Source: Candidatus Saccharimonadia bacterium (GTDB lineage: Bacteria > Patescibacteriota > Saccharimonadia > Saccharimonadales > JALRHH01). From it: DNA of 64,000 bases. The number at the start of each line of letters is the position of its first letter. The first letter of the stretch is position 1. A model generated the notes under the pieces. That model did not search any database, had not been told where the DNA came from, and saw only the letters and a list, made by a program, of their open reading frames with translations. Of the stretch, positions 1 through 12,051 are shown in pieces. A program made the translations under genes and the position numbers. Location of the stretch: positions 428,020 to 492,019 of the forward strand of contig JALRHH010000001.1 in NCBI GenBank assembly GCA_023253175.1. Direction: 5' to 3'.

Positions 1-318
1 ATCCTTAGAGAGTTGAGCTAACTCCCAGGCAGTCATATTATCCGGTGCCACTACTTCTACCATGCCGTCATTTTTGGTTGCATGGTCAGGCCTCGCGCTT
101 GCATCCCAATCACCGAGAGATGCTGCCCCTGCTCCAATAACAGTAGTAGCTGCCGCAAGTACAAGACTTGCACGGCCTAATCGTACTTTTACCCTTGTTC
201 TTGGGGCCTCTACTGCGTTAACTTCGATCTGCCTTGCAGAATGTGCAAGGTTAATCGCCTCATTGGTATGAGTTTCAAGTGACTTTTCTGGGACTGATGG
301 ATTATTGCTTTGTGCCAT
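1..318 (-). CDS. hypothetical protein, N-terminal part only (gene runs off the window start); one hydrophobic segment
   Basis: Manual reverse translation from ATG at 318-316 gives MAQSNNPSVPEKSLETH...RASLVLAAATTVIGAGAASL...VVAPDNMTAWELAQLSKD. 106 codons with no stop down to position 1. Absent from the ORF track because it is truncated. Confidence 0.4.
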   Translation of the reverse strand, partial: MAQSNNPSVPEKSLETHTNEAINLAHSARQIEVNAVEAPRTRVKVRLGRASLVLAAATTVIGAGAASLGDWDASARPDHATKNDGMVEVVAPDNMTAWELAQLSKD

Positions 319-377
319 AATAGATACATTATATCAAATCATTAGCTTTTTGTCAATATTATGGCAAAGCTAACAGA

Positions 378-1643
378 TTAGGACTGAAGCTTCTTTATGG
401 TTGCCGCGAACCATTTGGCGCTTGGACGAATTGTTCGCTTCATTGTCTTGCGGTCAACGTGGATCAGGCCAAATTCTGGCCACCAACCGTATTTCCACTC
501 AAAGTTATCCAGTAAACTCCAGTGGAAGTACCCACGCAGATCAACACCTTCGCTAATTGCCCGCTCCATGGCCACAATCGTTTCTTCTATCCACCAACGG
601 CGATGCTCATCAGATGCATCTGCCAGGCCATTCTCGGTAATAAAAATTGGCTTTTTGAACCTTGTCCAGGCACGAAGCATCAATGGGTATATACCCTCCG
701 GTTCCATATACCAGCCCAGGTCATTAACAGGTACTGATGGATTGATTCTCTTACCAAAACCAGTGTAATAATCTGTAAAGTAATAGTTGATGCCGACAAA
801 GTCCTGATAACGCTTAATGCGCGCCAGGAACCACCAGTTCCAGAAGTAACGCATCCATTTGGTAGAGACGTTATCAAGTACGTTGTGGGGACGCTTGGAC
901 TGAATATTGCCAAGCTGTGCTGCAACGCCCACATATAGGCTCGGCTTTGCAGCCTTCAAGATCCGGTATGATTCGCGGTGCGTACGGGTTAGGTTCCAAT
1001 ATACTTTGCAGAATTTGAACAGGCTCTTTTCCTGCGGTGGCCATTCCCCTGTTAGGTATCCAAATGAGGAATAGACGTTGGGCTCATTAAGCGTGATGAT
1101 GTATGTTATGTCATCGATAAGTTCATCGGCCACCTTTTGAACAAATCGTTCAAAATATTTGCGATTTTCCTTCTTGCCAAAGCCGCCCTTTTCCGTAAAC
1201 CATACTGGCATCGTCCAGTGCCAGATATTCAGGAATGGTTCTAGCTTGCGCTTGCGGAGCTCGGCGATATAACGACGGTAGTGCTCGATTTCGGCCTCGT
1301 CCCACTTTCCCTCTTCTGGTTCGATACGGGACCATTCGATGCCAAATCGAAAGGCATTTAGGTTAAGCTCCTGAGCGAGCGCAAAATCTTCCGGATAGCG
1401 CTTGTAGTGCTCAATACCCTTACCTGACACATAATTCTCTGGCTCCTCGGCCTGATCCTTAATACGATCCCATGATGGTAGCCAGTGCAATCTTTGGTGT
1501 GCGGTCTGCGCCAGCTCTTTAGCTTGCTCTAGCTCCCACTTGGACCACTGATTGTAATTACCACCTTCTACTTGGTGCGAGGCAGTAGATCCGCCCCAGA
1601 AAAAATGTTTTGGAAAGTTTCTGTCTGGATGTTGTTCGTTCAT
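378..1643 (-). CDS. glycoside hydrolase family 1 beta-glucosidase
   Basis: 421 aa. GH1 signatures: FPKHFFWGGSTASHQVEGG at the N-terminus, acid/base TLNEPNVY and nucleophile FITENG. Confidence 0.9.
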   Translation of the reverse strand: MNEQHPDRNFPKHFFWGGSTASHQVEGGNYNQWSKWELEQAKELAQTAHQRLHWLPSWDRIKDQAEEPENYVSGKGIEHYKRYPEDFALAQELNLNAFRFGIEWSRIEPEEGKWDEAEIEHYRRYIAELRKRKLEPFLNIWHWTMPVWFTEKGGFGKKENRKYFERFVQKVADELIDDITYIITLNEPNVYSSFGYLTGEWPPQEKSLFKFCKVYWNLTRTHRESYRILKAAKPSLYVGVAAQLGNIQSKRPHNVLDNVSTKWMRYFWNWWFLARIKRYQDFVGINYYFTDYYTGFGKRINPSVPVNDLGWYMEPEGIYPLMLRAWTRFKKPIFITENGLADASDEHRRWWIEETIVAMERAISEGVDLRGYFHWSLLDNFEWKYGWWPEFGLIHVDRKTMKRTIRPSAKWFAATIKKLQS

Positions 1644-1695
1644 TACTGCCTAGTATACCGCATAAGCTTGCTGTTACTTGAATTAGCCTATATCA

Positions 1696-2202
1696 CTATC
1701 TACGGTACTGCTCGACAGCCCGAATATTACTTATGACCGAAGTCAACGCCTCGCAGTCCGCTAGAGTCATCGGCACAGTCAAGTCTTCTGCTAGAAAATC
1801 AGCCCGATGTACTGTACCTACATATGGCTCGTGCTGGCCTCCTATATTTTCTACTTTATAGATATCGATACGCGGACTTTCACCCACCAATTTTGAATCA
1901 TCTTCTATGGCCACTGCGAAATTAATCAGCTTGAATGTAAAGCTTTCCTGGAGCGCGCAAGTCCCAATTGGCCGTAACCGCTGCACTAATAACCTAACAT
2001 TTTCAAGCATCCGAGCATCATCATCAACATTAACTTGCAAGTACTCTGCCATAAGCAGGGAGACAAACTGGTCACCTTGTGAGTATGATTTACGCTTACC
2101 TGCCGATAAAGGCCTGGTCTTCTTGAACGACAATAGGACATCCGCCGATTCTACTATAGTTTCTAGCTCACCGCCTGGTAGGCCTATTTGTTCTACACTC
2201 AT
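1696..2202 (-). CDS. hypothetical protein
   Basis: 168-aa ORF with no recognisable motif. It sits 4 nt downstream of the preceding gene in the same strand block. Confidence 0.5.
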   Translation of the reverse strand: MSVEQIGLPGGELETIVESADVLLSFKKTRPLSAGKRKSYSQGDQFVSLLMAEYLQVNVDDDARMLENVRLLVQRLRPIGTCALQESFTFKLINFAVAIEDDSKLVGESPRIDIYKVENIGGQHEPYVGTVHRADFLAEDLTVPMTLADCEALTSVISNIRAVEQYRR

Positions 2203-2206
2203 CTAT

Positions 2207-2635
2207 TTATAGTCCGTATACTGCTTCGCCATTTTTGATGCGTTTTTCAAGGGTTTGTAATATCTGAGCTAAGTTATTCAGATTCAGATCTTCTAATTTC
2301 TTAAAGCGCACACAGCTTTTACCGACACTCACCTTGCCCAGCTCTGCTTTGTGCTTTTCGGCAACATACTCACCATCTTCGAGTGCACAGACGTACAGGC
2401 TCATGTAATTCTTTTGGTTTGCAAGTGCTAATACCGGCCATTCCTGTTCTTTGCCACTGCTATTCTTGTACGTAAACAGACCATAGCCAACCATATTCAT
2501 GGCCATGCCAGATACCATGGTTCGCTCAAGACTCGGTGCAGATTCTCTGATGAGTTCATCCACCGTGCGAAGCGCGGCTTCCCTATCATCTGTTTTGGAA
2601 AAATACTCGTCAGGGTTAGCTGCCTCGATTCTCAT
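2207..2635 (-). CDS. DUF1801 (YdhG-like) domain protein
   Basis: 142 aa. Size and pattern (…LIRESAPSLERTMVSGMAMNMVGYG…NYMSLYV…) resemble the YdhG/DUF1801 family. The call is from memory of that family. Confidence 0.55.
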   Translation of the reverse strand: MRIEAANPDEYFSKTDDREAALRTVDELIRESAPSLERTMVSGMAMNMVGYGLFTYKNSSGKEQEWPVLALANQKNYMSLYVCALEDGEYVAEKHKAELGKVSVGKSCVRFKKLEDLNLNNLAQILQTLEKRIKNGEAVYGL

Positions 2636-3066
2636 TACAGACCAATTGCTCCGATAACCGCTGCCATCACCATAAATGTCACGAGTTCGTGCAGGCTATT
2701 TAAGCCCGTAAGCTTTTTACGGCGACCCTCAAATGTATCATGTACGTATAACCGAGCAGCCGTGAAGCCAAGCCACAGCCAAAATGCGGTTGTGAGCGCC
2801 GATTCCATCAAATCCTTATTAAAGAACTGTGACGATAGGTACGTAACGTGCGCTAAAACATATGCCGTTACCAGTGAGGCAATAAATGTGGATCCAAGCA
2901 AAAGCCCCATTTGCCCGGGCTTCACCTCTTTGCTCATATCAACCTTTGCAAGTTTCGCCCACTGTTTGCCAAATACGCTCTGCGCGTACCAAATTGCGCC
3001 CACAGCCATTGAACTGGCTGCAGCCAAGAATACCGCTAGATAGTTTACCTGTACTTCCATACCCAT
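2635..3066 (-). CDS. DUF1761 family small membrane protein
   Basis: 143 aa with about 4 TM segments. The N-terminal pattern AVGAIWYAQSVFGKQW is typical of DUF1761. Its start codon overlaps the downstream gene by 1 nt. Confidence 0.6.
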   Translation of the reverse strand: MGMEVQVNYLAVFLAAASSMAVGAIWYAQSVFGKQWAKLAKVDMSKEVKPGQMGLLLGSTFIASLVTAYVLAHVTYLSSQFFNKDLMESALTTAFWLWLGFTAARLYVHDTFEGRRKKLTGLNSLHELVTFMVMAAVIGAIGL

Positions 3067-3126
3067 ATACTCCTTCGGTTAGTATGAGTCGAATTATCTA
3101 CCTAAAGTTTCTGGCTGTCCAGTTAT

Positions 3127-4164
3127 TTATTTTGGTTGCTCATCGATAGCACCAAGTGCTTCTTTAAGCTCGTCTGGCTCTTCGAGCTTCAGCGGCTTCT
3201 TGCTCTTGATCTCGTACTTAAGACCAGTCATTGGTGATTCGTAGTAATCGTCGTTTAGGAGGTTTACGAACTTGGTGAGGTCTTTGGTATCCATGATGAT
3301 AATTGAACCGTTTGTGTCGGTCATCATTTCGATTCCCAGCTCTTCTGCGTGATTCAGCAGTTCATCTTGTTTCACGTTAGTTGGGTCAATCTTTTGCAGC
3401 TTATTAACAAGTGCTTTCTTTTCCATAACCATTGAATTGAGACTGGCGCCTTCTTCAAAGCTGAGTTTGAAGTTATCCTGAATTTCCGCGACTTTCTTTT
3501 CTGCGATCGCTGCTTTTTTGGCGTTGTAGTTAAACAGCTGTTCAAGCTTGGTCTGGTTAAAGACGAAAATATCCTGGTCGACAATAAGTAACTGGTTGTC
3601 GGTTGGAATACGTAGCGCCCCGTCTGCGTCGAACGGCACGAACTTACCGCCGCGGACTAACCACCCAGCGTTACCCTTCATCATGTTTGAACTTGGCAAT
3701 ACCTTTGCAACGTAAAATGGCTGTTCCATTTCAGGATGAGAGATACGTGCAATCACGCCCTTAATACGCTTGAGGTCGTGTTCTTCCTCAACAAACTGTT
3801 CGATCTCGGCCTCTTGTGTACGGAGCCAGCTCAGCACTTCCCTGGCCTTCACGACGTTAATGAGCTTTGTTTTCTGAAGAACCATTTGCTCTTGCTCTGC
3901 ATCCTCAAAATTACGGACTACAAGTCCCTGGTCTGCACCCTCAAGCACGTATTCAAGGATTGGATCAATTAAGATTGAGTGCAGGTGCATCTCAAGGTCC
4001 TTGGACCTCGAAGTCTTATACACCACTGAGTTTTTGTTAATCAAAAATAATTCTATTTTGAGGTCTTCCTTGAGCTGCACAAGGTTGTTCGCCCATAAGA
4101 AAATGTCTGTCTCCTGGTAATCATCCTGAAGCTCTTGTTCGTTCACTGATTTGTTTTCTTCCAT
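3127..4164 (-). CDS. KwaB-like (DUF4868-like) protein
   Basis: 345 aa, soluble. Central segment LLIVDQDIFVFNQTKLEQLFNY and C-terminal LLNDDYYESPMTGLKYEIKSKK resemble my recollection of the DUF4868/KwaB family. Not verified by any search. Confidence 0.5.
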   Translation of the reverse strand: MEENKSVNEQELQDDYQETDIFLWANNLVQLKEDLKIELFLINKNSVVYKTSRSKDLEMHLHSILIDPILEYVLEGADQGLVVRNFEDAEQEQMVLQKTKLINVVKAREVLSWLRTQEAEIEQFVEEEHDLKRIKGVIARISHPEMEQPFYVAKVLPSSNMMKGNAGWLVRGGKFVPFDADGALRIPTDNQLLIVDQDIFVFNQTKLEQLFNYNAKKAAIAEKKVAEIQDNFKLSFEEGASLNSMVMEKKALVNKLQKIDPTNVKQDELLNHAEELGIEMMTDTNGSIIIMDTKDLTKFVNLLNDDYYESPMTGLKYEIKSKKPLKLEEPDELKEALGAIDEQPK

Positions 4165-4169
4165 GAAAA

Positions 4170-4182
4170 CTATTCTAACCCA
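4170..4182 (-). promoter_or_regulatory. putative extended -10 promoter (TGGGTTAGAATAG) for the KwaB-like gene; apparently leaderless
   Basis: The reverse complement of 4170-4182 is TGGGTTAGAATAG. The TAGAAT hexamer (4172-4177) lies 7 nt from the ATG at 4164. No Shine-Dalgarno sequence in between. Confidence 0.4.
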
Positions 4183-4204
4183 GCATGACTCAAAGACGTG
4201 TTGT

Positions 4205-4227
4205 AATTATCAAGCGGCTTGATAATT
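4205..4227. promoter_or_regulatory. perfect 23-bp palindrome AATTATCAAGC-g-GCTTGATAATT (operator or RNA hairpin)
   Basis: 11-bp arms read directly from the sequence. The right arm overlaps the stop codon of the 209-aa gene. The palindrome sits just upstream of the -35 region of the putative KwaB-like promoter. Confidence 0.5.
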
Positions 4228-4856
4228 TAGTACCTGCGGGACTTTAGTAAAGTCTTTGTGACGAGGCCGCCAAGCGCAAGTCCGACGCCCACTATGGCGG
4301 CATTTTTAAGATTTGCCTTGACATCCTCTACATCAACATCAATTTCCAACCAGAAGCGCTTTATGCCCTCACGAGGCATTTTTTCAGATATATCAATAAA
4401 ATTATCTATGTCTGCACATAAATTACTTGAGTACTTACTATAAATTAATTCTCCGAGTTCCTTTACACTTTCAGCTTTTTCAAAAAGCGACTCCACAATT
4501 GTGATAACTCGTGTCTCATCAAACATGTCGTAGTATTCAGAGCCAACAAGACGATTAAATAGCTCACCTCGCTTATTGTCATCGGCGACCCAAAGACGAG
4601 CAATAGTGGTTCTTGCTTCCTCGGCAGATTCTGCAAGAGACCCAAACACCTCTGTTGATAGATCAGTAAAATGAGTCGCTTGATTCGTAATCTGCTCTGC
4701 GAGCACATCTGAGTATTGTTCGTAGTCCGGCTTGTCTTTAAATATGCCACTCAAAAGACTATGTAGCATGAACTGTCCTTCGTCAAAACTCGCCATTGAA
4801 TCAAGTAGGCCCGAGTCTAGCCCCTCGAACGGCTCTTCATAGCCAAATTTACCCAT
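4227..4856 (-). CDS. hypothetical tail-anchored membrane protein
   Basis: 209 aa. Acidic soluble body with a single C-terminal TM (AAIVGVGLALGGLVTKTLL) followed by KSRRY. Overlaps the upstream gene by 8 nt. Confidence 0.55.
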   Translation of the reverse strand: MGKFGYEEPFEGLDSGLLDSMASFDEGQFMLHSLLSGIFKDKPDYEQYSDVLAEQITNQATHFTDLSTEVFGSLAESAEEARTTIARLWVADDNKRGELFNRLVGSEYYDMFDETRVITIVESLFEKAESVKELGELIYSKYSSNLCADIDNFIDISEKMPREGIKRFWLEIDVDVEDVKANLKNAAIVGVGLALGGLVTKTLLKSRRY

Positions 4857-5643
4857 TAACAGACCTCTCTTCCTCTTCTTCGTGTGGAAGAATAACTTTC
4901 AAAATATTCTTTGCGGCATTCATGACACCCACCTCTGTAACAATGCTATTACTCTCAATATTCTGGTACAACATGTCAACTGCCATGGTTAGCTGAAGCT
5001 CCTTGAGCACGGAAGATCCGAGGTCAGCAAACATCTTTAGATCATCTTCATCAAATACCTCATCAAGATCGGCAGATTCAGGCCCTTCTAGCGTCTCTGC
5101 TACCAACGAAGCCTCGGACTGCGCCTGCATTGGTAAACTAGACTGAGCTCGTGCACCAGGTAGCTCAACAGGAGTCTCATCAACATATGCATATACCTGC
5201 AGTAAATCTTCTATTGTTCCATCAGACGTAACGGTTACCGTATAATCACACCCGATTGCGAGCCTCGTTTCCGAATTATCAAGCAGCCTAAGCCACTCTT
5301 CTGTCGGAACTAATTCTCCGTCAACCAGCTCAGTCTGACCATACTGTAGTGCCTCCCAAACATCGTCCGGAAAAGCAATTCTTGAAAGCTCGTTGAACCT
5401 TGCCTCGCCAATAATTTTGTATGTTGTTAAAAGAATCTCATCATCCTCATCCGAGACAACACGCTCCGCATTGAAAGAATAGCTATTTGACGTCAGGTTA
5501 TAGAAATCGGCATTAGAGCGAGCAAATCTCGTAAATGATTCATCGTGTTCTTTATATCCTTGATCGAGCTGCCCCGCAATCTTTTCGAGCTCCATGGCAA
5601 ACCTAAGTACATCCGATTCCGACTCTGCCCCAAATTCGCTCAT
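4849..5643 (-). CDS. hypothetical acidic protein
   Basis: 264 aa, strongly D/E-rich, no recognised motif. Translationally coupled on both sides (4-nt and 8-nt overlaps). Confidence 0.55.
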   Translation of the reverse strand: MSEFGAESESDVLRFAMELEKIAGQLDQGYKEHDESFTRFARSNADFYNLTSNSYSFNAERVVSDEDDEILLTTYKIIGEARFNELSRIAFPDDVWEALQYGQTELVDGELVPTEEWLRLLDNSETRLAIGCDYTVTVTSDGTIEDLLQVYAYVDETPVELPGARAQSSLPMQAQSEASLVAETLEGPESADLDEVFDEDDLKMFADLGSSVLKELQLTMAVDMLYQNIESNSIVTEVGVMNAAKNILKVILPHEEEEERSVNG

Positions 5644-6281
5644 GCTGCGGCCTCATTATCAAACTGATTCACTGTGTCCAGCATACGTTCCTTTATCTCT
5701 TCAATTGCTTCTGGATAGAGTGGTTGACGCCATTTTGAACCGTATGGCACCACTTGGTCTATGAGCACTTGAGTATCTGGATGTAGGTAAGTATCAACGA
5801 CTGGGTTATAGTTAACGATCGTTAGTTTTGTGCCAGTCGCCTGGCCATCCGCGCCCCACTCCAACTGATAAAGTTCGCGTGTATTTGAATATCGAAGTTT
5901 ATCGTTAAGAATATATTCCAGAAACGATACGCTTAGCTTCCAAGATCTGAAATCAACCATACCTGTCCTTATGCTAACGAATCGATCAACATCGTTTGAA
6001 CCAATTGGACTGCCGGAGTTTTGGAGTAACGTAAACTGGTGAAGCCTATTTCTAACTCGTGGCCTTCTGGCGCTTTCTCTAAGTACACCCATCGCCACTG
6101 CCTGCAAAGATAGCACATCCTTTAATGGCAATCCTGGCAAATCGTCTACAGATTCAATTTCAACCACACTAGATTTTCTGCTTACAGTGTGACTTAGATC
6201 AGATAATGCGTGGAGCCTCAGATCATCTGTATCTAGATGACCTTGTTTTTGCTCCACCCTTTTTAGAGCTTCGGTTTCCAT
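5640..6281 (-). CDS. hypothetical protein (first gene of the accessory operon)
   Basis: 213-aa ORF. On the minus strand a TATAAT box (6288-6293) lies 6 nt upstream of the ATG. Confidence 0.55.
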   Translation of the reverse strand: METEALKRVEQKQGHLDTDDLRLHALSDLSHTVSRKSSVVEIESVDDLPGLPLKDVLSLQAVAMGVLRESARRPRVRNRLHQFTLLQNSGSPIGSNDVDRFVSIRTGMVDFRSWKLSVSFLEYILNDKLRYSNTRELYQLEWGADGQATGTKLTIVNYNPVVDTYLHPDTQVLIDQVVPYGSKWRQPLYPEAIEEIKERMLDTVNQFDNEAAA

Positions 6282-6422
6282 ATGCTGATTATAGTCCTGC
6301 TATTTTTGTATGCAAGAATTAGCACTTTTTTACAACTAGCTGAGCAAGTATTGTATACAAAATTGATGCAATGTGATATAATATAATTAATATATCGGTG
6401 GGATTATCAAACAGGAGTCAAT

Positions 6423-7079
6423 GTGCCCACCTTTCCAAACACCTTCGATGAATCAACGCATATCTTAGTACCAACTGACTTAAAAGCCAGCCACGCAGAA
6501 CATCTTATAAAACTCAACATGGCAGGCTACGATGTAGTAGCTGGGCTCCGACGCGAAGACGTGCCTGCCCTTGCTGAAATTGCGGCTCAAGAAGGCACCA
6601 GAGAATATTGCCCAAATGACCTAAAACGCCGCTGGGGCGATGAGGCTATGGCCGAGGCAAAACTAGCAAAAGCAGGTGGATCCGGCGTACTTCGTCTTGT
6701 CTCCCAAAAGAATGGAAACACACTTGGCTTCGGCTGGACCGGACACATTGACGACGAAGATCAGGAGCATCTGCCAATGTGTGAGAATATATTTGCACTT
6801 CGCCTGCATGAAGCATCGCGGGGCAAAAGACTAGGCACAACATTCTCTAGGGTTATTGTGGCCGGTTCGATGGCATTATGGGGAGCCAGAAATGTAGGGC
6901 TTGCCACTTGGGCTAGCAACACACCAGCCGTCCGGACATATTTATCCGCAGGCGCAGAACTTGTAACAACTAAAGATGATGTGCGTCCCACGATTTTACG
7001 CGGTCCCGGCAAATTCCAATACGAAAACCACCGCAACGACGTCCGTCTTTATATGCAGTTCCCCTGGTCGGCTAAATAG
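6423..7079 (+). CDS. GNAT-like N-acetyltransferase (putative)
   Basis: 218 aa with a GTG start preceded by AGGAG. RGKRLGTTF resembles the acetyl-CoA binding R/Q-x-x-G-x-G/A motif. An extended -10 (TGATATAAT) lies upstream. Confidence 0.45.
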   Translation: MPTFPNTFDESTHILVPTDLKASHAEHLIKLNMAGYDVVAGLRREDVPALAEIAAQEGTREYCPNDLKRRWGDEAMAEAKLAKAGGSGVLRLVSQKNGNTLGFGWTGHIDDEDQEHLPMCENIFALRLHEASRGKRLGTTFSRVIVAGSMALWGARNVGLATWASNTPAVRTYLSAGAELVTTKDDVRPTILRGPGKFQYENHRNDVRLYMQFPWSAK

Positions 7080-7082
7080 AAA

Positions 7083-8438
7083 CTATTTCATTTTAGGTTT
7101 TAAAGGATCCTGGCTACCCCTGGTATATTGCCTGATCGGCTTTCTGCTTGCTGCCCAGGCGTCCAGTACTGGCTGCACGACTTCCCATGCGGTCAACAGC
7201 TCTTCGCTGCTCGAAAATAATGATTGGTCACCTTTTACCGCGTCCATAATGACACGTTCATACGCGTCAGGATGACCAGGCTGATTCGTAAACGTATTTT
7301 TATACGAGAAGTCCAGTTCAGTGCCATGCATCTGATTATCAAAGCCGGGTGCTTTTACAAACAGGTCGAGTGATATTCCTTCATTGGGTTGCAACCTGAA
7401 ACTGAGCTGGTTACGGCGCCGTTCATGTGGATATTTAAACCGTACGATTACCTCTGTCGTCTTCTCGCTGAGTGCCTTGCCTGTTTCTAGAATAATCTCG
7501 GTATCTCTCCACCTGTCTAATTCTGATTGTAGTTCGATGAGTGCATATGTTTCTGTACGCGAGCTAGGGTTGCCCACTTCATCTCTATAACCCTTATACT
7601 GCGCCCGAGCCGCTTTGGTCGGATCCGCAGGTGCAAGACTTTTAAGGAATGCCAATTTAGCCGTACGGATGTCTTCACTGCTGTTACTCAGCGGCTGATC
7701 CATCATAACTACAGATAGAAGCTGCATAAGATGACTTTGGATAATATCGCGGAGTGCGCCTGTGCGCTCATAAAAATCGGCGCGGCCCTCAATGCCTAAC
7801 GATTCGTGCGCCCTAATATGCACACGGTCAATGTGTTCATCATTCCAAAGTGCAGCAAAAATCGGATTATTCAGCCGGAACGCGAGCAGATTCTGGGCAG
7901 TCTCCTTTGCCAAATAGTGATCAATACGGTAGACCTGCGACTCGTCGAAATGTTCATTGGTAATACGAACGAGCTTTTCCGCCGAGGCTACATCATGACC
8001 AAATGGCTTCTCGACCAGAAGTCGGGTTCGGCTGTCATTAAGTTTATGCGCGCCAAGTTGCTTAATAATCGGCGTGTAGGCACTAGGCGGAATCGCCATG
8101 TACATCAATCGATCACGTCGACCTTTCGTATCAAATGAATCCAGCAGGCGGGCCAGTTTGTCATAATCGTCAGCTACAGTCGGATCAAGCTGAACAAGCT
8201 GCAGTGCATCATGGAGCTTTTGTAGTCCTTTAGGATCACAGATTTTGTCCGCCTCCAGTACACAAAGCTCAACCTGGTCGAGCAGTTTATCTACCGTCAC
8301 CTTACTTCGGCTCACGCCAATAATACGAGTCTTTTTATCCAGTAAATCTTGCGAGATCAAATGGTACAGCGCCGGCAACAACTTGCGCCGGCTTAAATCC
8401 CCCGTAACACCGAATATAACAATGACCGTCGGCTTCAT
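7083..8438 (-). CDS. zwf: glucose-6-phosphate 1-dehydrogenase
   Basis: 451 aa. Motifs: NADP-binding GVTGDLSRRKLLPALY, EKPFG, and active-site RIDHYLAKE. GGAGGA SD 7 nt upstream. Confidence 0.95.
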   Translation of the reverse strand: MKPTVIVIFGVTGDLSRRKLLPALYHLISQDLLDKKTRIIGVSRSKVTVDKLLDQVELCVLEADKICDPKGLQKLHDALQLVQLDPTVADDYDKLARLLDSFDTKGRRDRLMYMAIPPSAYTPIIKQLGAHKLNDSRTRLLVEKPFGHDVASAEKLVRITNEHFDESQVYRIDHYLAKETAQNLLAFRLNNPIFAALWNDEHIDRVHIRAHESLGIEGRADFYERTGALRDIIQSHLMQLLSVVMMDQPLSNSSEDIRTAKLAFLKSLAPADPTKAARAQYKGYRDEVGNPSSRTETYALIELQSELDRWRDTEIILETGKALSEKTTEVIVRFKYPHERRRNQLSFRLQPNEGISLDLFVKAPGFDNQMHGTELDFSYKNTFTNQPGHPDAYERVIMDAVKGDQSLFSSSEELLTAWEVVQPVLDAWAASRKPIRQYTRGSQDPLKPKMK

Positions 8439-8506
8439 AAGCCGTCCTCCGTATACTTCGTAGGGTCATTATGCTCTACAAATTCCAGAGTCTCAACAAT
8501 AATTCA

Positions 8507-8845
8507 TCAATCGATGAGGAAGTCTAATTGCTCTTCCGGAATATCAATGGACTTACCGTAGCTGACAGCGTCTGTCCACGTGCTTTTATCGTCTCTGCTC
8601 ATAAGAAACGTCTTGCCGGGAAATACCACATAGATATTTTCATCGTCCCAGAAGTGAGCGTACCATTTCTCTGGCTTGAGCTGCTTGGCCAAATGCTCTA
8701 TCTGCTCAATTGTCATACGAACCTGATATAAATGCCACCGATCCTCGGGCTTCTCGGCACTAGATATCCGGACAGATAAAATATCCAGTTCATTTAAGAA
8801 CCGATTGTCTACCAGGCTTTCTTCAACAACTGTTCCGCGCAGCAT
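8507..8845 (-). CDS. hypothetical protein
   Basis: 112-aa ORF starting 1 nt after the preceding gene. No recognised motif. Confidence 0.5.
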   Translation of the reverse strand: MLRGTVVEESLVDNRFLNELDILSVRISSAEKPEDRWHLYQVRMTIEQIEHLAKQLKPEKWYAHFWDDENIYVVFPGKTFLMSRDDKSTWTDAVSYGKSIDIPEEQLDFLID

Positions 8846-8846
8846 A

Positions 8847-9539
8847 TTACTTCAGGTTTTTAGGCTTTACTGCATCGCAGGAATTTACGACTAATTCGTG
8901 CACAGCATCTAGCACATCACTTTGATCAAAGTTGATACCACTGCTCTTTTTAAGCTTTAAGCGAATTGCCTTTATAACATCTGCCGTATAGATAGTCTTG
9001 ACGAGACTAGATGGCGTTAATGCGTCAAAGCGCTTCCAATACATCTCCATCTCGCCTTTTGTAACGGCTGGCTTAGTTAGGTGTACGAGGTGTTCGGCGG
9101 CAGACTTCATACTACCGAGATCGCTCAGATCAAAATCAAAGACCTTATGCACACTAATTGGTTTGGCAAAGATGACACGGTACAGTTGGATCTGCTTACC
9201 GTTGAATAAAAGAATCCAATCAATACCTTCATTCGCTGCATAGCTGGTACTTTGACGCAGATGTCGATCGTTTAGGTCGATCTGGATGGACTTCACCTCA
9301 ATAACAAAGTGCTTCTTACGCGCCAACTGGATTACATAATCAGCATACTCACCGCGGATATTGTACTCGGTCTTGATATCATCAAGCTCCACATACCCCA
9401 TAACACCAGTCAGGAAATAGTTCACCATCAGGCGAGTCGCCGACTCATCAAGTTCTAAATTAGCTTTTTTAGTTAAATATTTCTTGCGATACTCTCTTAG
9501 CCGTTTCTCAAGTTGTACTCGTTGATGCTCAGTCGCCAT
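8847..9539 (-). CDS. PD-(D/E)XK nuclease-like protein, type I restriction HsdR N-terminal-domain type
   Basis: 230 aa. GEYADYVI…FVIEVKS gives a D…E-x-K arrangement. The overall pattern resembles stand-alone HsdR_N domain proteins. Confidence 0.55.
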   Translation of the reverse strand: MATEHQRVQLEKRLREYRKKYLTKKANLELDESATRLMVNYFLTGVMGYVELDDIKTEYNIRGEYADYVIQLARKKHFVIEVKSIQIDLNDRHLRQSTSYAANEGIDWILLFNGKQIQLYRVIFAKPISVHKVFDFDLSDLGSMKSAAEHLVHLTKPAVTKGEMEMYWKRFDALTPSSLVKTIYTADVIKAIRLKLKKSSGINFDQSDVLDAVHELVVNSCDAVKPKNLK

Positions 9540-9541
9540 AA

Positions 9542-9895
9542 TTAACTTTCTGGGTGAAAACCCATTATTTTTTCCTTATCTTCTGCAGAACTAATAAGTT
9601 GTACGTAGTTTAATGATGCATCTAGTTTTGTCATTAAAAGAGATCGGTCGCAGAACTTCTCTCGAGTATATCGCTTTTCACCCGTCCTACTATTAGCTGA
9701 TGCCAATCTATGCACGACGTCTTTTTCAGGAATTTCAAAATCATGACTATCAAAGATATCTTCACCAAATTCTTCAGAAATTTGTTTTAAAGCCACATGA
9801 AACTGCTCTACATACTTCTCCTCAATATGATAGCTATCCGGTAAGTTATTCTTTAGTGCAATCAATGTAGAATAAGCAACTAGAAGTTTTGTCAT
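9542..9895 (-). CDS. hypothetical protein
   Basis: 117-aa ORF wedged 2 nt after the glyQS stop and 2 nt before the nuclease-like gene. Confidence 0.5.
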   Translation of the reverse strand: MTKLLVAYSTLIALKNNLPDSYHIEEKYVEQFHVALKQISEEFGEDIFDSHDFEIPEKDVVHRLASANSRTGEKRYTREKFCDRSLLMTKLDASLNYVQLISSAEDKEKIMGFHPES

Positions 9896-9897
9896 AC

Positions 9898-11307
9898 TTA
9901 GAGCTCCTCAACAGAAAGTCTTTTTTGTTCGGTGGTGTCGCGATTTCTTACAGTGACCGTGCTGTCTTCTAGGGTGTCAAAGTCGATGACGACGCAGTAT
10001 GGCGTACCAATCTCGTCTTGGCGGCGATAGCGCTTACCGATATTTCCATTGTCGTCCCACATGACTGCACCATGCTTTTTCTTGAGCAATGAAAACACTT
10101 CGCGGGCTTTTTCAACAAGCTCTGGCTTGTTCTTAAGCAGCGGTGATACCGCAAATTTAACAGGCGCAAGATGCTCTGGAAGTTTTAGGTATACGCGCTT
10201 TTCGCCGTTCACTTCGTCTACTGTATACGCAGCTGATAGCACTGCCATAATTGCACGCTCTAGGCCAAATGACGGCTCGATCACGTGCGGCACAAATTTG
10301 TCATTCGTACCCTTGATGGTGTATTCCATACTCTTACCCGACACCCGCTGAATGTTACCCAGATCAAAATCAGTCCGGTACGCCAGACCAAGTAATTCTT
10401 CGCGGCCAATCGGGAAATCAAATTCAAAGTCGATAGTACGCTTACTGTAATGTGCGCGGTCGTTTTCTGGAACTTCTAATTCATGCACTGATTCTTTTGG
10501 AAGGCCAAGTGCTTCGCACCATTCCCATACAGCCTTGCGCCATGATTCGAATGATTCTTCCCACTTGTCTGGGTGTACAAAATACTCAATTTCCATTTGT
10601 TCGAACTCGCGGCTGCGGAAAATAAAGTCACGTGGGCTAATTTCATTACGAAACGCCTTACCCTGCTGACCAACACCGAATGGCAAGTCTGGATAGAACG
10701 TATCAACAACGTTCTTGAAGTTCGTGAAAATACCTTGAGCGGTTTCAGGTCGTAGGTAACTTACGTTTAGTGCAACCTCATCATTACTATCCGCACGAAC
10801 TTCACGTTCTTCCTTTGATAGATCAATTGTATATAGATAGTTGTTATCTTTTATCCTTACTGTGTCTTTGTCGGGGAATGAGATTTCAGTATCAAGACTA
10901 ACTGGACCTACCACAGTCTTGAACATCATGTTGAACTGTTTAGCTTCACCAAAAGTACCCTTTTGACCACATGATGGACACTTATTAGGATCGTCTAACT
11001 TATCCGCACGGAAACGACCCCTACAGTTGCTACATTCAACCAATGGGTCAGTAAACGTATCGACGTGACCACTGGCCTGCCATACTTTTTGGTTCATCAA
11101 GATAGCTGCGTCGACACCATACATGTCATCACGGTCCTCAACGAACATCTTCCACCAAAGCGCCATGATGTTGCGCTTTAGCTGCACACCAAGTGGACCG
11201 TAGTCCCACGTCCCCGAAAGTCCACCATATACTTCGCTACCCTGGAATATAAATCCACGGCGCTTACATAGGCTGACAATATCTTCGAGTGAGGTTTGCT
11301 TATTCAT
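9898..11307 (-). CDS. glyQS: glycine--tRNA ligase (alpha2 dimer type)
   Basis: The N-terminus MNKQTSLEDIVSLCKRRGFIFQGSEVYGGLSGTWDYGPLG is typical of GlyRS. I prefer the ATG at 11307 to the track start at 11352. Confidence 0.95.
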   Translation of the reverse strand: MNKQTSLEDIVSLCKRRGFIFQGSEVYGGLSGTWDYGPLGVQLKRNIMALWWKMFVEDRDDMYGVDAAILMNQKVWQASGHVDTFTDPLVECSNCRGRFRADKLDDPNKCPSCGQKGTFGEAKQFNMMFKTVVGPVSLDTEISFPDKDTVRIKDNNYLYTIDLSKEEREVRADSNDEVALNVSYLRPETAQGIFTNFKNVVDTFYPDLPFGVGQQGKAFRNEISPRDFIFRSREFEQMEIEYFVHPDKWEESFESWRKAVWEWCEALGLPKESVHELEVPENDRAHYSKRTIDFEFDFPIGREELLGLAYRTDFDLGNIQRVSGKSMEYTIKGTNDKFVPHVIEPSFGLERAIMAVLSAAYTVDEVNGEKRVYLKLPEHLAPVKFAVSPLLKNKPELVEKAREVFSLLKKKHGAVMWDDNGNIGKRYRRQDEIGTPYCVVIDFDTLEDSTVTVRNRDTTEQKRLSVEEL

Positions 11308-11355
11308 ATGACGCAAATTATACCCCAAACAGGGGTAAAACACCACATGCACAAT

Positions 11356-12051
11356 CTAACGGTCGATGGATTGGCGAAGTAAGTTTTTGCTCAAGGGTTG
11401 GAGTGCAGCGATGTATTCATCTGCGTCCTGTACTTGCTTAAGAAGCACGGGGCTTTGGAGCGAATGAATAAGACGGAGTAGCTTAAGGTGATTGACGTTG
11501 TACGGGCCGCCGTCCTGGACCCGAAAACCACTGGACTCAAAATCAAATAAATACGATTCTTCGGCCGATAATTTATTACCTTCTGTATCCGTACTGAGGT
11601 TCGGTGCATGCCCTGTTATTTGCAGCAGTTGCAACGCAAACCAGGTCTCAATGTACGGCAACGGCACATCAGCGTCATTAAGTCCCGCAAGTGCTGCAGA
11701 TAATAGATCAAAGTATTCCTCGCCGGCCTCGTCCTCGATATAACGGTTCAGTTGTTTTATTAAATCATAGCCAAACATCGTGCGCTGAATGTCTTTGACG
11801 ATGTTGCCGTAGTTAACCGCCATACGGCTGCTAATGAGCGTCTTCAGATCACTTTTGCTAGGCATGATTGTCAGTTCGTTAATCGTGAACAATTCAATGC
11901 CACCTGCCATTTTTGATTTGGGCCGCCTGACGCCTTTTGCAATGATACTGAGCCGTCCATTATCCGGTGTCAGCACGTGTAAAATCCGATCAGCTTCCTG
12001 GTAGTCCCGGCGTGACAGCACGATGCCGCGTGTAACAATCTGCGCTTTCAT
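11356..12051 (-). CDS. recO: DNA repair protein RecO
   Basis: 231 aa. The N-terminal OB-fold pattern VTRGIVLSRRDYQEADRILHVLTPDNGRLSIIAKGVRR is typical of RecO. Confidence 0.85.
   Translation of the reverse strand: MKAQIVTRGIVLSRRDYQEADRILHVLTPDNGRLSIIAKGVRRPKSKMAGGIELFTINELTIMPSKSDLKTLISSRMAVNYGNIVKDIQRTMFGYDLIKQLNRYIEDEAGEEYFDLLSAALAGLNDADVPLPYIETWFALQLLQITGHAPNLSTDTEGNKLSAEESYLFDFESSGFRVQDGGPYNVNHLKLLRLIHSLQSPVLLKQVQDADEYIAALQPLSKNLLRQSIDR

What the first reader, a model, noticed from the sequence alone, without database searches (positions are those of the whole stretch)
3127..6281. KwaB-like (DUF4868-like) protein in a cluster with three unknown proteins: possible non-canonical Kiwa-like defence module
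Four co-oriented genes lie between housekeeping genes (GH1 and DUF genes on one side, zwf on the other). They encode a 213-aa unknown, a 264-aa highly acidic unknown, a 209-aa protein with a single C-terminal tail-anchor TM, and a 345-aa soluble protein.

The first three are translationally coupled by 4-nt and 8-nt overlaps. The 345-aa protein has a central IVDQDIFVFNQTKLEQLF segment and a C-terminal LLNDDYYESPMTGLKYEIKSKK segment. Both resemble the DUF4868/KwaB family as I recall it.

In canonical Kiwa, KwaB is preceded by KwaA, a ~200-aa membrane protein with four TM helices. Here the preceding gene is membrane-associated but has only one C-terminal TM. Two further unknown proteins sit upstream.

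If the KwaB homology holds, this would be a different sensor architecture coupled to a KwaB effector, in a reduced genome that carries little accessory DNA. The other three proteins showed no motif I could recognise.
Basis: inference. Interest (0 to 1): 0.65.

Follow-up and report, generated by a model that had tools for sequence, protein, structure and literature searches.

The report
Solo KwaB homologue fixed in Saccharibacteria
The 345-aa protein really is a relative of the anti-phage protein KwaB, but it is a lone, slowly evolving, vertically inherited gene of Saccharibacteria with its own promoter and no KwaA partner, and the three unknown genes beside it are a separate, fast-changing local insertion rather than a new Kiwa sensor.

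Summary
Four minus-strand ORFs of 213, 264, 209 and 345 aa are present, with 4-nt and 8-nt overlaps and a C-terminal TM in the 209-aa protein.

The 345-aa protein is a full-length KwaB homologue. It scores 42.8 bits against Pfam PF16162 (cut-off 26.3). A family profile matches solved KwaB over residues 34-317, and Foldseek gives E 1e-13 to KwaB structures only.

The "Kiwa-like module" reading is mostly not supported:
- No KwaA is found in the window or in 85 related loci, and the KwaA-docking loop of KwaB is replaced.
- The gene lies in fixed synteny (RecO-GlyRS ... KwaB ... GH1-MraZ) in at least 440 Saccharibacteria species genomes.
- It evolves as slowly as GlyRS (dN/dS 0.02) and tracks housekeeping genes.
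- It carries a dedicated conserved promoter motif inside the 62-nt gap after the 209-aa gene.

The three upstream genes occur only in a genus-level clade. They diverge to about 25% identity, or are swapped, while KwaB stays 97-98% identical, and they are absent from close relatives that keep KwaB.

The nearest outgroups are solo KwaB-like genes in phage replication and recombination regions. The likely orthologue in Southlakia epibionticum is non-essential by Tn-seq.

Best reading: a KwaA-independent DNA-binding KwaB variant.

The parts
3127..4164 (-). g4: solo KwaB-family protein (345 aa) with an N-terminal Rossmann-like domain and a C-terminal DUF4868 domain
   Evidence: Pfam PF16162 42.8 bits, GA 26.3. 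PADLOC KwaB E 7.8e-14 over residues 29-327. NCBIfam KwaB E 1.4e-15, but 57 bits against a 200-bit equivalog cut-off. Family profile against PDB KwaB 9o0i/9mrx, E 6e-9, chain residues 34-317. AF2 pLDDT 87.9. Foldseek hits only KwaB structures, E 1e-13.
4172..4206 (-). Dedicated conserved promoter/operator of g4: TTACAACA box, 21-nt spacer, TAGAAT -10 (4177-4172) ending 7 nt before the ATG, so the mRNA is probably leaderless
   Evidence: The composite motif occurs 48 times in 1.39 Mb of 85 Saccharibacteria loci. 43 of these are directly upstream of the KwaB-like ORF, with a 21-nt spacing in 40 of 43. It occurs once in the 64-kb window, here.
4206..4226 (.). Perfect 10-1-10 palindrome ATTATCAAGC-C-GCTTGATAAT, between the g3 stop codon and the TTACA box
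   Evidence: Read from the sequence and detected. Among the 13 of 82 loci where the scan found any palindrome, only L009 (this genome) carried this one. Function unknown (operator or weak hairpin).
4227..4856 (-). g3: acidic 209-aa protein with a single C-terminal tail-anchor TM (nt 4245-4301)
   Evidence: ORF; KD hydropathy 1.82 at residues 186-204. No Pfam, PADLOC, PHROG or NCBIfam hit. Only itself among 5.8e9 proteins. Weak full-length similarity (20%) to a 221-aa protein of L007 that also has a hydrophobic tail.
4849..5643 (-). g2: very acidic 264-aa protein (pI 4.05)
   Evidence: No family hit. Only 24-28% identical counterparts, in L007 and L093.
5640..6281 (-). g1: 213-aa protein, first and most conserved gene of the upstream operon
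   Evidence: Homologues at 87%, 72%, 41%, 35% and 26% identity, all just upstream of a KwaB-like gene. dN/dS 0.086 against L093, so it is a real gene under constraint. AF2 model unusable, pLDDT 33.7.
6277..6389 (-). Conserved upstream region of the g1 operon, with a promoter-like TTGCAT-16-TATAAT (6315-6288) ending 6 nt before the g1 ATG
   Evidence: 87.6% nt identity to L007 and 84% to L093, while the genes downstream of g1 are unalignable. Hexamers read (inference).

Best explanation
g4 is a KwaA-independent ("solo") member of the KwaB family. It keeps both KwaB domains.

Shown:
- It is one lineage of a gene present in at least 440 Saccharibacteria species genomes.
- That gene is inherited vertically in a fixed position between the RecO-GlyRS block and the GH1-MraZ-dcw block.
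- It is under purifying selection as strong as on GlyRS.
- It is transcribed from its own conserved promoter.

Inferred: like E. coli KwaB, it most likely forms a dimer that binds ssDNA and dsDNA non-specifically, using retained basic residues (K163, R185, K206, K255). In this way it blocks or shields replication or recombination intermediates. It would do so in the cytoplasm, without a membrane sensor. The loop that docks onto KwaA has been replaced by a lineage-invariant acidic motif (Q117-E-x-E-I-E-x-F-x-E-E-E-H-D130), which probably binds a different partner or regulates the protein itself.

Whether the DNA it acts on is foreign (phage or transforming DNA) or the cell's own is not settled. 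The housekeeping-like evolution, the nucleic-acid-enzyme neighbours and the phage relatives in replication and recombination modules favour a DNA-transaction role over classical mobile immunity.

g1-g3 are a separate operon of acidic proteins, one of them tail-anchored. The operon has its own promoter, evolves fast and is mosaic. It was inserted into the gene-flux hotspot just upstream of the KwaB promoter in one genus-level clade. It is not a KwaA replacement by any test made here.
For: Homology and fold.

No KwaA:
- Pfam, which includes KwaA PF28043, on the neighbouring genes.
- 0 of 83 loci have an upstream same-strand gene of 120-260 aa with 3 or more TM. The same counter scores a real KwaA as 4 TM.
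- tblastn of a real KwaA against the window and all loci finds nothing.
- The only small multi-TM ORF in the window is DUF1761.

Fixed synteny. 440 species genomes.

Selection: against L007, KwaB has dN 0.015, dS 0.67 and dN/dS 0.023. GlyRS has dN 0.036 and GH1 0.044.

Vertical descent:
- Mantel r is 0.80 against GH1, 0.56 against RecO and 0.30 against GlyRS, each p = 0.001. GlyRS against RecO gives 0.28.
- The chromosomal sequences are monophyletic in an NJ tree.

Own promoter.

Residue mapping: R142 maps to K/R in 70 of 86 sequences and R167 to R in 79 of 86. The docking loop P100/N101/Q103 is replaced by the acidic motif, and Y157 maps to F in 80 of 86.

g1-g3 restricted and mosaic.

Phage solo relatives lie next to RecT, RusA, a replication initiator and terminase.

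Literature: KwaB binds ss/dsDNA and stalls forks (PMC11785009). SEML1_0265 (DUF4868, between a RecD-like helicase and GH1) is non-essential by Tn-seq (PMC10633639 Table S1).
Against: - No biochemical or genetic data exist for this subfamily. DNA binding is inferred from about 14% identity to E. coli KwaB, and only 2-3 of 6 DNA-contact positions are conserved in register.
- Global TM-score to solved KwaB is only 0.43-0.49. This fits a different domain orientation but is not proof of the same quaternary structure.
- All loci were found through the KwaB-like gene itself, so the fraction of Saccharibacteria that lack it is unknown.
- g1-g3 are always adjacent and co-oriented with g4 where present. 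No convincing terminator lies between g3 and g4, so co-transcription and a functional link are not excluded.
- The neighbourhood association with helicase, NYN and RNase H genes (about a third of loci) could be inherited synteny only.
Confidence: 0.6

Rival explanations
1. One reading: g1-g3 and g4 are one four-gene Kiwa-like defence module. The tail-anchored g3, perhaps with g1 and g2, replaces KwaA as membrane tether or sensor for the KwaB effector.
For: - Constant adjacency and co-orientation in every genome that has g1-like genes.
- A tail-anchored acidic protein recurs in the window and in L007.
- No clear terminator between g3 and g4.
- Extreme divergence and mosaic replacement are typical of conflict genes.
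- g2 is acidic enough to be a DNA mimic, and the DNA mimic Gam binds KwaB (PMC11785009).
Against: - KwaB is present without any g1-g3 homologue in about 78 of 85 species loci, including the close relatives L013 and L015.
- KwaB keeps its own conserved promoter in the g3/g4 gap.
- There is no general enrichment of acidic ORFans upstream of KwaB: 23% against a 14% background for pI below 5, and 39% against 28% for singletons.
- KwaB stays 97-98% identical while the supposed partners fall to about 25% identity or are swapped, which is not co-evolution.
- None of the three matches any PADLOC or Pfam model.
Confidence: 0.1
2. g4 is still an immune protein: a constitutive, chromosomally fixed solo-KwaB defence of Saccharibacteria that blocks phage or plasmid DNA without KwaA. 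It may use another trigger or partner, for example the frequently adjacent RecD/Pif1-like helicase.
For: - It belongs to the KwaB family, and KwaB is the DNA-binding effector of Kiwa (PMC11785009).
- It is non-essential in phage-free co-culture.
- Homologues carried by phages could serve superinfection exclusion.
- It sits next to a gene-flux hotspot.
- A helicase lies directly downstream in 15 of 84 loci and within 3 genes in 28 of 85.
Against: - Canonical Kiwa needs both genes, and KwaA confines non-specific DNA binding to the entry site (PMC11785009).
- Kiwa is prone to HGT and lies on mobile elements in about 53% of cases. This gene instead is vertical, syntenic and as constrained as GlyRS.
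- Phage copies lie in replication and recombination modules rather than moron positions.
Confidence: 0.25
3. The g1-g3 ORFs are not functional genes but decaying remnants or spurious ORFs in a variable spacer.
For: - No family hits.
- g3 is an ORFan.
- The AF2 model of g1 has pLDDT 33.7.
Against: - g1 dN/dS is 0.086 against L093.
- The same three-gene layout, with the same 4-nt and 8-nt overlaps and similar lengths (219/276/206), recurs in a species whose KwaB is 90% identical.
- The sequence is identical on 7-10 independent contigs.
- The operon has a conserved upstream promoter region.
Confidence: 0.05

Closest known systems
KwaB of the Kiwa defence system (E. coli O55:H7 / ECOR; PDB 9mrx, 9mtn, 9nyu, 9o0i; Pfam PF16162)
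   Same: Same two-domain architecture over the full length: an N-terminal Rossmann-like domain and a DUF4868 domain. It is the only fold match in the PDB (E 1e-13). The C-terminal motifs are shared (DDY..S..T..Y). Basic residues are kept at the positions of R142 and R167, and next to K187 and R233.
   Different: - About 14% identity, and 57 bits against the 200-bit NCBIfam equivalog cut-off.
- No KwaA gene.
- The KwaA-docking loop (P100/N101/Q103) is replaced by an invariant acidic motif, and Y157 is F.
- Vertical, syntenic and slowly evolving, where Kiwa is mobile.
- It has its own conserved promoter, whereas in the one canonical Kiwa locus examined (L097) kwaA and kwaB overlap.
SEML1_0265 of Southlakia epibionticum ML1 (DUF4868 domain-containing protein; Wang et al. 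2023, PMC10633639)
   Same: Same Pfam domain, similar length (337 aa) and the same position directly upstream of GH1. It is probably the orthologue in a cultivated, genetically tractable Saccharibacterium.
   Different: It is preceded by a RecD/Pif1-like helicase and RNase HI, not by g1-g3. Tn-seq calls it non-essential.
Phage-encoded solo KwaB-like proteins (IMG/VR UViGs L100-L122; metagenomic phage contigs L094, L095, L099; Siphoviridae sp. ctQNW6 A0A8S5QWK1)
   Same: They also lack KwaA. They share the subfamily motifs D-x-F-x-W-A-N and N-L-L-N-D-D-Y at 27-55% identity. In an NJ tree they form the grade immediately outside the chromosomal Saccharibacteria clade.
   Different: They are encoded in phage genomes next to RecT, RusA, a replication initiator or TerS/TerL/HNH. 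The acidic-loop motif differs, for example in L100. Their function is unknown.

Membership tests
KwaB / DUF4868 protein family (Pfam PF16162) | Significant match to the family model above the curated threshold | tested here: met
   42.8 bits against GA 26.3, E 7.7e-11. Eight PADLOC KwaB models match, the best at E 7.8e-14 over residues 29-327.
KwaB / DUF4868 protein family (Pfam PF16162) | Two-domain KwaB fold (Rossmann-like N-terminal domain plus DUF4868) | tested here: met
   The AF2 model (pLDDT 87.9) hits only KwaB chains in the PDB: E 9e-14, probability 1.0, about 320 aligned columns, TM 0.43-0.49. The next hit has E about 1. The profile matches chain residues 34-317.
KwaB equivalog (NCBIfam NF041623, 'anti-phage protein KwaB') | Score at or above the equivalog cut-off (200 bits) | tested here: not met
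   57.3 bits, E 1.4e-15. This makes it a family member, not an equivalog.
Kiwa defence system (KwaA + KwaB) | An adjacent kwaA gene encoding a roughly 180-200-aa protein with four TM helices (Pfam PF28043), usually overlapping kwaB | tested here: not met
   - No KwaA hit for g1, g2, g3, DUF1761 or the other neighbours.
- g3 has one TM.
- 0 of 83 related loci have an upstream small multi-TM gene.
- tblastn with a real KwaA finds nothing.
- The window has no other candidate.
- Positive control: the canonical Kiwa locus L097 shows KwaA PF28043 with 4 TM.
Kiwa defence system (KwaA + KwaB) | KwaB residues that dock onto KwaA (R35, N42, the P100/N101/Q103 loop, Y157), which are required for defence | tested here: not met
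   In 86 Saccharibacteria sequences, P100 maps to H/A, N101 to E, Q103 to E, R35 to N/S/K and Y157 to F. Caveat: the alignment is at about 14% identity.
Kiwa defence system (KwaA + KwaB) | DNA-contact residues of the DUF4868 channel (N134, R142, R167, D169, K187, R233) | tested here: inconclusive
   R142 maps to K/R in 70 of 86 sequences, R167 to R in 79 of 86 and R233 to K/R in 54 of 86. K187, N134 and D169 are not conserved in register, but the invariant K206 and K255 lie next door (with invariant columns).
Kiwa defence system (KwaA + KwaB) | Mobile, defence-island-type distribution (HGT; about 53% on mobile elements) | tested here: not met
   Fixed synteny, distances congruent with housekeeping genes, and dN/dS 0.023, set against the figures in PMC11785009.
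Kiwa defence system (KwaA + KwaB) | Protection against phage or conjugation | not testable with these tools
   The only indirect data are that the probable orthologue SEML1_0265 is non-essential in phage-free co-culture.

The most novel reading that the evidence does not exclude
KwaB-family proteins may have a KwaA-independent, older role in phage DNA replication or recombination. Under this reading, Saccharibacteria captured one such phage gene once and fixed it as a lineage-wide cytoplasmic DNA gatekeeper under a dedicated regulator-controlled promoter. It would act, for example, on incoming transforming or phage DNA, or on stalled forks. In the window's genus, the fast-evolving acidic operon directly upstream (g1-g3, including a possible DNA-mimic-like g2 and a tail-anchored g3) would then be a variable regulator or sensor layer for it.
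Probability: 0.15. Interest if true: 0.75.

Novelty: new variant of a known kind. Interest (0 to 1): 0.5.

Why it matters
Kiwa is one of the twenty most abundant defence systems. Its effector KwaB is thought to be safe for the cell only because KwaA confines it to the DNA entry site.

A KwaB homologue that has lost KwaA and the KwaA-docking loop, yet is kept under housekeeping-level constraint across a whole lineage of ultra-small, genome-reduced epibionts, raises two possibilities. The DUF4868 fold may have a second, non-Kiwa function. Alternatively, a defence effector may have been domesticated.

The phage-borne solo relatives point to where KwaB may have come from.

A probable orthologue (SEML1_0265) exists in a Saccharibacterium that can be mutated by natural transformation, so the question is directly testable.

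For the scan itself, the lesson is that a true domain hit to a defence protein did not mean a defence island.

Tried and rejected
- Single-sequence phmmer of g4 against PDB sequences found nothing. A 27-sequence family profile was needed.
- The search for related loci with the diverse alignment A1 failed because no conserved stretch was found. It was repeated with a closer alignment.
- The homologue search with g3 returned only g3 itself. The search with g1 returned three proteins.
- DUF1761 (3-4 TM, directly downstream of g4) was considered as a KwaA substitute and rejected. It is a clear Pfam DUF1761 with no KwaA or PADLOC KwaA match, and it lies within 3 genes of KwaB in only 7 of 85 loci.
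- A general rule that KwaB is preceded by hypervariable acidic ORFans was tested. The enrichment is only weak.
- No flanking direct or inverted repeats suggest a mobile insertion. There is no Rfam RNA in 1-12000. No convincing intrinsic terminator lies between g3 and g4.
- tblastn of g4 against 50,697 GenBank phage records found nothing, whereas IMG/VR gave 23 contigs.
- PIF1-like helicase, NYN and RNase H neighbours, common elsewhere, are not in this 64-kb window.


Full report
**Observation**

The four co-oriented minus-strand ORFs exist exactly as described:
- g1, 6281..5640, 213 aa
- g2, 5643..4849, 264 aa
- g3, 4856..4227, 209 aa
- g4, 4164..3127, 345 aa

g1/g2 overlap by 4 nt and g2/g3 by 8 nt. 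A 62-nt gap lies before g4. g2 is very acidic (pI 4.05). g3 has a single hydrophobic stretch at residues 186-204 followed by KSRRY.

The organism is a Candidatus Saccharibacteria (TM7) bacterium. Identical proteins lie on contigs of up to 950 kb. All close homologues carry Saccharibacteria or Saccharimonadales titles.

**Is g4 a KwaB?**

Yes, at the family level.
- Pfam PF16162 scores 42.8 bits against a cut-off of 26.3.
- Eight PADLOC KwaB models match. The best covers residues 29-327.
- NCBIfam KwaB aligns end to end, but at 57 bits against a 200-bit equivalog cut-off.
- A single-sequence search of PDB sequences found nothing.
- A profile of 27 family members matched the solved KwaB chains 9o0i and 9mrx over residues 34-317, at E 6e-9.
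- An AF2 model (pLDDT 87.9) hit only KwaB structures in the PDB (E about 1e-13, probability 1.0, about 320 aligned columns). The next hit had E about 1.
- The global TM-score is only 0.43-0.49. I attribute this to a different orientation of the two domains, which is an inference.

**Is there a KwaA, or anything that could replace it?**

None was found.
- Pfam now holds a KwaA model (PF28043). It appears on a canonical Kiwa locus that I retrieved as a control. That locus is L097: a 180-aa KwaA with 4 TM overlapping a KwaB that is 26% identical to g4, next to an HNH and a DNA methylase gene.
- None of g1, g2, g3, DUF1761 or the other neighbours matches KwaA in Pfam or PADLOC.
- tblastn with the control KwaA finds nothing in the window or in any fetched locus.
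- The window's only small multi-TM ORF is a clear DUF1761.
- In 85 species-level loci, no upstream same-strand gene of 120-260 aa has 3 or more TM (0 of 83).

I mapped the E. coli KwaB residues that the Kiwa study showed to be needed for docking onto KwaA (PMC11785009) onto 86 Saccharibacteria sequences.
- The P100/N101/Q103 loop is replaced by a near-invariant acidic motif, K-T-Q-E-H/A-E-I-E-x-F-x-E-E (g4 residues 115-127).
- The motif continues into the invariant E128-H129-D130 seen in the closer alignment.
- Y157 becomes F in 80 of 86 sequences.
- Of the six DNA-contact residues, R142 and R167 remain basic in 70 and 79 of 86 sequences, and R233 in 54 of 86. K187, N134 and D169 are not kept in register, although the invariant K206 and K255 lie beside two of these positions.
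- These mappings rest on an alignment at about 14% identity.

**Distribution and evolution of g4**

The word-index search gave 1,629 clusters, and the top 120 are all at least 61% identical. A pattern scan of one genome per GTDB species found relatives in 440 genomes, nearly all titled Saccharibacteria.

In every long locus examined, the gene sits in the same chromosomal frame:

xseA-xseB-methyltransferase-x-x-response regulator-RecO-GlyRS-[variable genes]-KwaB-like-[variable genes]-GH1-x-MraZ-RsmH-FtsL-PBP

Selection was compared against the closest species-level relative, L007.
- KwaB is 97.4% identical in protein while synonymous sites are heavily diverged (dS 0.67).
- KwaB has dN 0.015 and dN/dS 0.023. 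For comparison, dN is 0.036 for GlyRS, 0.044 for GH1 and 0.050 for DUF1761.
- Against more distant relatives, its dN equals that of GlyRS and GH1.

Pairwise KwaB distances correlate with those of GH1 (r 0.80), RecO (0.56) and GlyRS (0.30), each with Mantel p = 0.001. GlyRS against RecO gives 0.28. In an NJ tree, all 85 chromosomal sequences form one clade.

Canonical Kiwa behaves in the opposite way. It is shaped by HGT and is on mobile elements in about 53% of cases (PMC11785009).

Caveat: all loci were retrieved through the gene itself, and the 80 kept are the best matches. I therefore cannot say what fraction of Saccharibacteria lack it.

**g4 has its own promoter**

A composite motif, T[TA]ACA[GAC][CG][AG]-N21-TA[GT]AAT (typically AATTTTACAGCAG ... 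GGTAGAATAG), occurs 48 times on both strands of 1.39 Mb of Saccharibacteria loci. 43 of these lie directly upstream of the KwaB-like ORF, with a spacing of exactly 21 in 40 of 43.

In the 64-kb window it occurs once, at 4206..4172, inside the g3/g4 gap. The TAGAAT ends 7 nt before the ATG, which suggests a leaderless mRNA in this clade (inference).

The TTACA box lies 24 nt from the -10. This is too far for a sigma-70 -35 element, so it may be an activator or alternative-sigma site (inference). A second KwaB subclade has a different upstream motif.

No locus shows translational coupling of KwaB to an upstream gene.

**The upstream operon g1-g3**

None of the three matches Pfam, PADLOC, PHROGs or NCBIfam.

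g3 finds only itself among 5.8e9 proteins. g1 finds two relatives, at 87% and 72% identity. With the fetched loci, g1-like genes occur only in a genus-level clade whose KwaB is at least 80% identical, and always just upstream of KwaB.

One species with 90% identical KwaB has the same layout: 219/276/206 aa with the same 4-nt and 8-nt overlaps.

In L007, where KwaB is 97-98% identical, the operon reads 71/182/207/221/261 aa.
- The 182-aa and 261-aa genes are only about 24-26% identical to g1 and g2.
- The 221-aa gene shares about 20% identity and a hydrophobic tail with g3.

In L093, nucleotide identity of 84% covers the promoter region and g1 and stops at the g1/g2 junction. The next gene is unrelated, and a g2-like gene at 28% identity follows. 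This is mosaic replacement, not gradual drift.

g1 is under purifying selection (dN/dS 0.086), so these are real genes. Two close relatives, L013 and L015, keep KwaB and its promoter but have unrelated genes upstream.

Across 85 loci, the gene immediately upstream of KwaB is highly heterogeneous. The commonest is RNase H, in 8 of 83 loci. Enrichment for singleton or acidic ORFs at that position is weak: 39% against 28%, and 23% against 14%.

The GlyRS-to-KwaB interval is therefore a gene-flux hotspot. In this genome it also holds zwf, a GNAT-like gene and an HsdR_N-like gene. None of these recurs near KwaB in the other species, except the HsdR_N-like gene in L007.

**Relatives outside the chromosomal clade**

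The exhaustive HMMER search found only 188 cluster representatives at E up to 1e-3. I could look up the contexts of four of them.
- The 40%, 33% and 27% relatives are solo genes on phage-like contigs. One lies with RusA and a large terminase. One lies between RecT and a PDDEXK-FtsK protein, with a CHAP/LysM lysin. One lies with YopX.
- The 26% relative is the canonical Kiwa locus.

A scan of IMG/VR found 23 viral contigs with relatives at 27-55% identity. None has a 4-TM gene upstream. The neighbours are TerS-TerL-x-HNH in a 16-member group, a replication-initiation protein in L102, and RecT in L104. BFVD holds two siphovirus proteins with this fold.

In the NJ tree these phage copies form a grade between canonical KwaB and the chromosomal clade, with L100 and L101 closest. 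That tree has no support values.

**Experimental anchors from the literature**

E. coli KwaB binds ssDNA and dsDNA non-specifically, does not cut DNA, and stalls replication forks. It is inhibited by the DNA mimic Gam, and it needs KwaA for defence (PMC11785009).

In Southlakia epibionticum ML1, SEML1_0265 is a DUF4868 protein of 337 aa lying between a RecD/Pif1-like helicase and GH1. It has the same position as g4, so it is probably the orthologue (inference from annotation and synteny). Tn-seq calls it non-essential at all three passages. It is not one of the 921 cross-phylum core families (PMC10633639 Tables S1 and S2).

I found no paper that discusses DUF4868 in Saccharibacteria.

**Interpretation**

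Shown:
- g4 is a full-length KwaB-family protein without KwaA and without the KwaA-docking loop.
- It is vertically inherited, syntenic and strongly constrained.
- It has a dedicated conserved promoter.
- g1-g3 are a separate, clade-restricted, fast-evolving and mosaic operon.

Inferred:
- g4 binds DNA as KwaB does and acts in the cytoplasm on replication or recombination intermediates, or on incoming DNA.
- The conserved acidic loop is a new interaction or autoregulatory surface.

I put about 0.6 on this overall picture. Within it, I favour a DNA-transaction role over classical immunity. My reasons are the housekeeping-like evolution, the recurrent nucleic-acid-enzyme neighbours (NYN in 29, helicase in 28 and RNase H in 22 of 85 loci within three genes) and the phage relatives in replication and recombination modules.

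A constitutive solo-KwaB defence remains a serious rival (about 0.25).

**Novelty**

The protein family is known, and the gene is already labelled "DUF4868" or "KwaB-like" in some records. The new elements are the KwaA-less, lineage-fixed variant with a replaced docking loop, a dedicated promoter and phage-borne sister genes. To my knowledge, within the searchable library, this has not been described. I rate it a new variant of a known kind with moderate interest.

**Method caveats**

- Gene calls in the fetched loci are my own longest-ORF heuristic.
- Families are BLAST single-linkage clusters.
- The TM counts use a Kyte-Doolittle window.

Noticed in passing
window 4172-4206 (-); the same motif in L001-L092 upstream of the KwaB-like ORF: A strongly conserved, gene-specific upstream motif, AATTTTACAGCAG-N21-(G)GTAGAATAG. 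43 of its 48 occurrences in 1.39 Mb lie in front of the KwaB-like gene. The TTACA box is 24 nt from the -10, too far for a sigma-70 -35 element. A second KwaB subclade (L046, L049, L051-53, L062, L064, L065, L067, L075) instead has TTTTCCG(N)TACACTNG.
   Followed up: partly
window 4206-4226: A perfect 10-1-10 palindrome, ATTATCAAGC-C-GCTTGATAAT, lies directly after the g3 stop codon and abuts the TTACA box. Among the loci where the palindrome scan reported anything, only this genome carries it. It could be an operator.
   Followed up: no
window 4165-9897 (GlyRS to KwaB interval): The interval between two conserved anchors is a gene-flux hotspot. Here it holds a 117-aa ORF, an HsdR_N_2-like 230-aa ORF, a 112-aa ORF, zwf, a GNAT-like gene and g1-g3. 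Other species have RNase H, GATase, HAD, His_Phos_1, Zn-peptidase or LysM genes there. zwf and GNAT were found near KwaB in no other species locus.
   Followed up: partly
window 8847-9539 (-), with 9542-9895 and 8507-8845: A 230-aa protein gives a weak PF13588 (HSDR_N_2, restriction-enzyme N-terminal nuclease-like) hit in precomputed annotations. It is tightly packed between two small unknown ORFs, with gaps of 1-2 nt. It is 96.5% identical to its L007 counterpart although synonymous sites are saturated, so it is strongly constrained. It has no PADLOC or NCBIfam hit.
   Followed up: no
window 1696-2202 (-): A 168-aa unknown between the conserved DUF1801 and GH1 genes is as fast-evolving as g1 and g2 (27.5% identity to L007, 22-32% to L005 and L014). 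Hyper-divergent small genes are therefore not unique to the KwaB-adjacent operon.
   Followed up: no
L093:1117-2944 vs window 5632-6389: There is a sharp mosaic breakpoint. Nucleotide identity of 84% runs through the promoter and g1 and ends at the g1/g2 junction. An unrelated 207-aa gene and then a 28%-identical g2-like gene follow.
   Followed up: partly
window 6288-6315 (-) and 4172-4177 (-): Both g1 (TTGCAT-16-TATAAT, 6 nt before the ATG) and g4 (TAGAAT, 7 nt before the ATG) appear to lack a 5' leader and a Shine-Dalgarno sequence. This suggests leaderless translation in this clade.
   Followed up: no
L003, L019, L024, L026, L039, L045, L054-L056, L077-L079 and others (downstream of the KwaB-like gene): A roughly 510-aa RecD/Pif1-like helicase (PF05970/PF13604) lies directly downstream of the KwaB-like gene in 15 of 84 loci. 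A NYN-domain protein lies there in 12 of 84. RNase H is the commonest upstream neighbour. None of these is in the 64-kb window.
   Followed up: partly
L100:7986-8960 (IMG/VR UViG_3300042202_000028, 54.7 kb); L107-L122: A viral contig encodes a solo KwaB-like protein 55% identical to g4. A group of 16 related viral contigs has the gene immediately after TerS-TerL-x-HNH and before a 55-aa single-TM ORF.
   Followed up: partly
L029, L037, L085 (record titles): Three contigs with typical Saccharibacteria KwaB-like genes (58-63% identity) belong to MAGs titled Limnocylindrales, Limnocylindria and Acidoferrum. They are probably mis-binned Saccharibacteria contigs.
   Followed up: no
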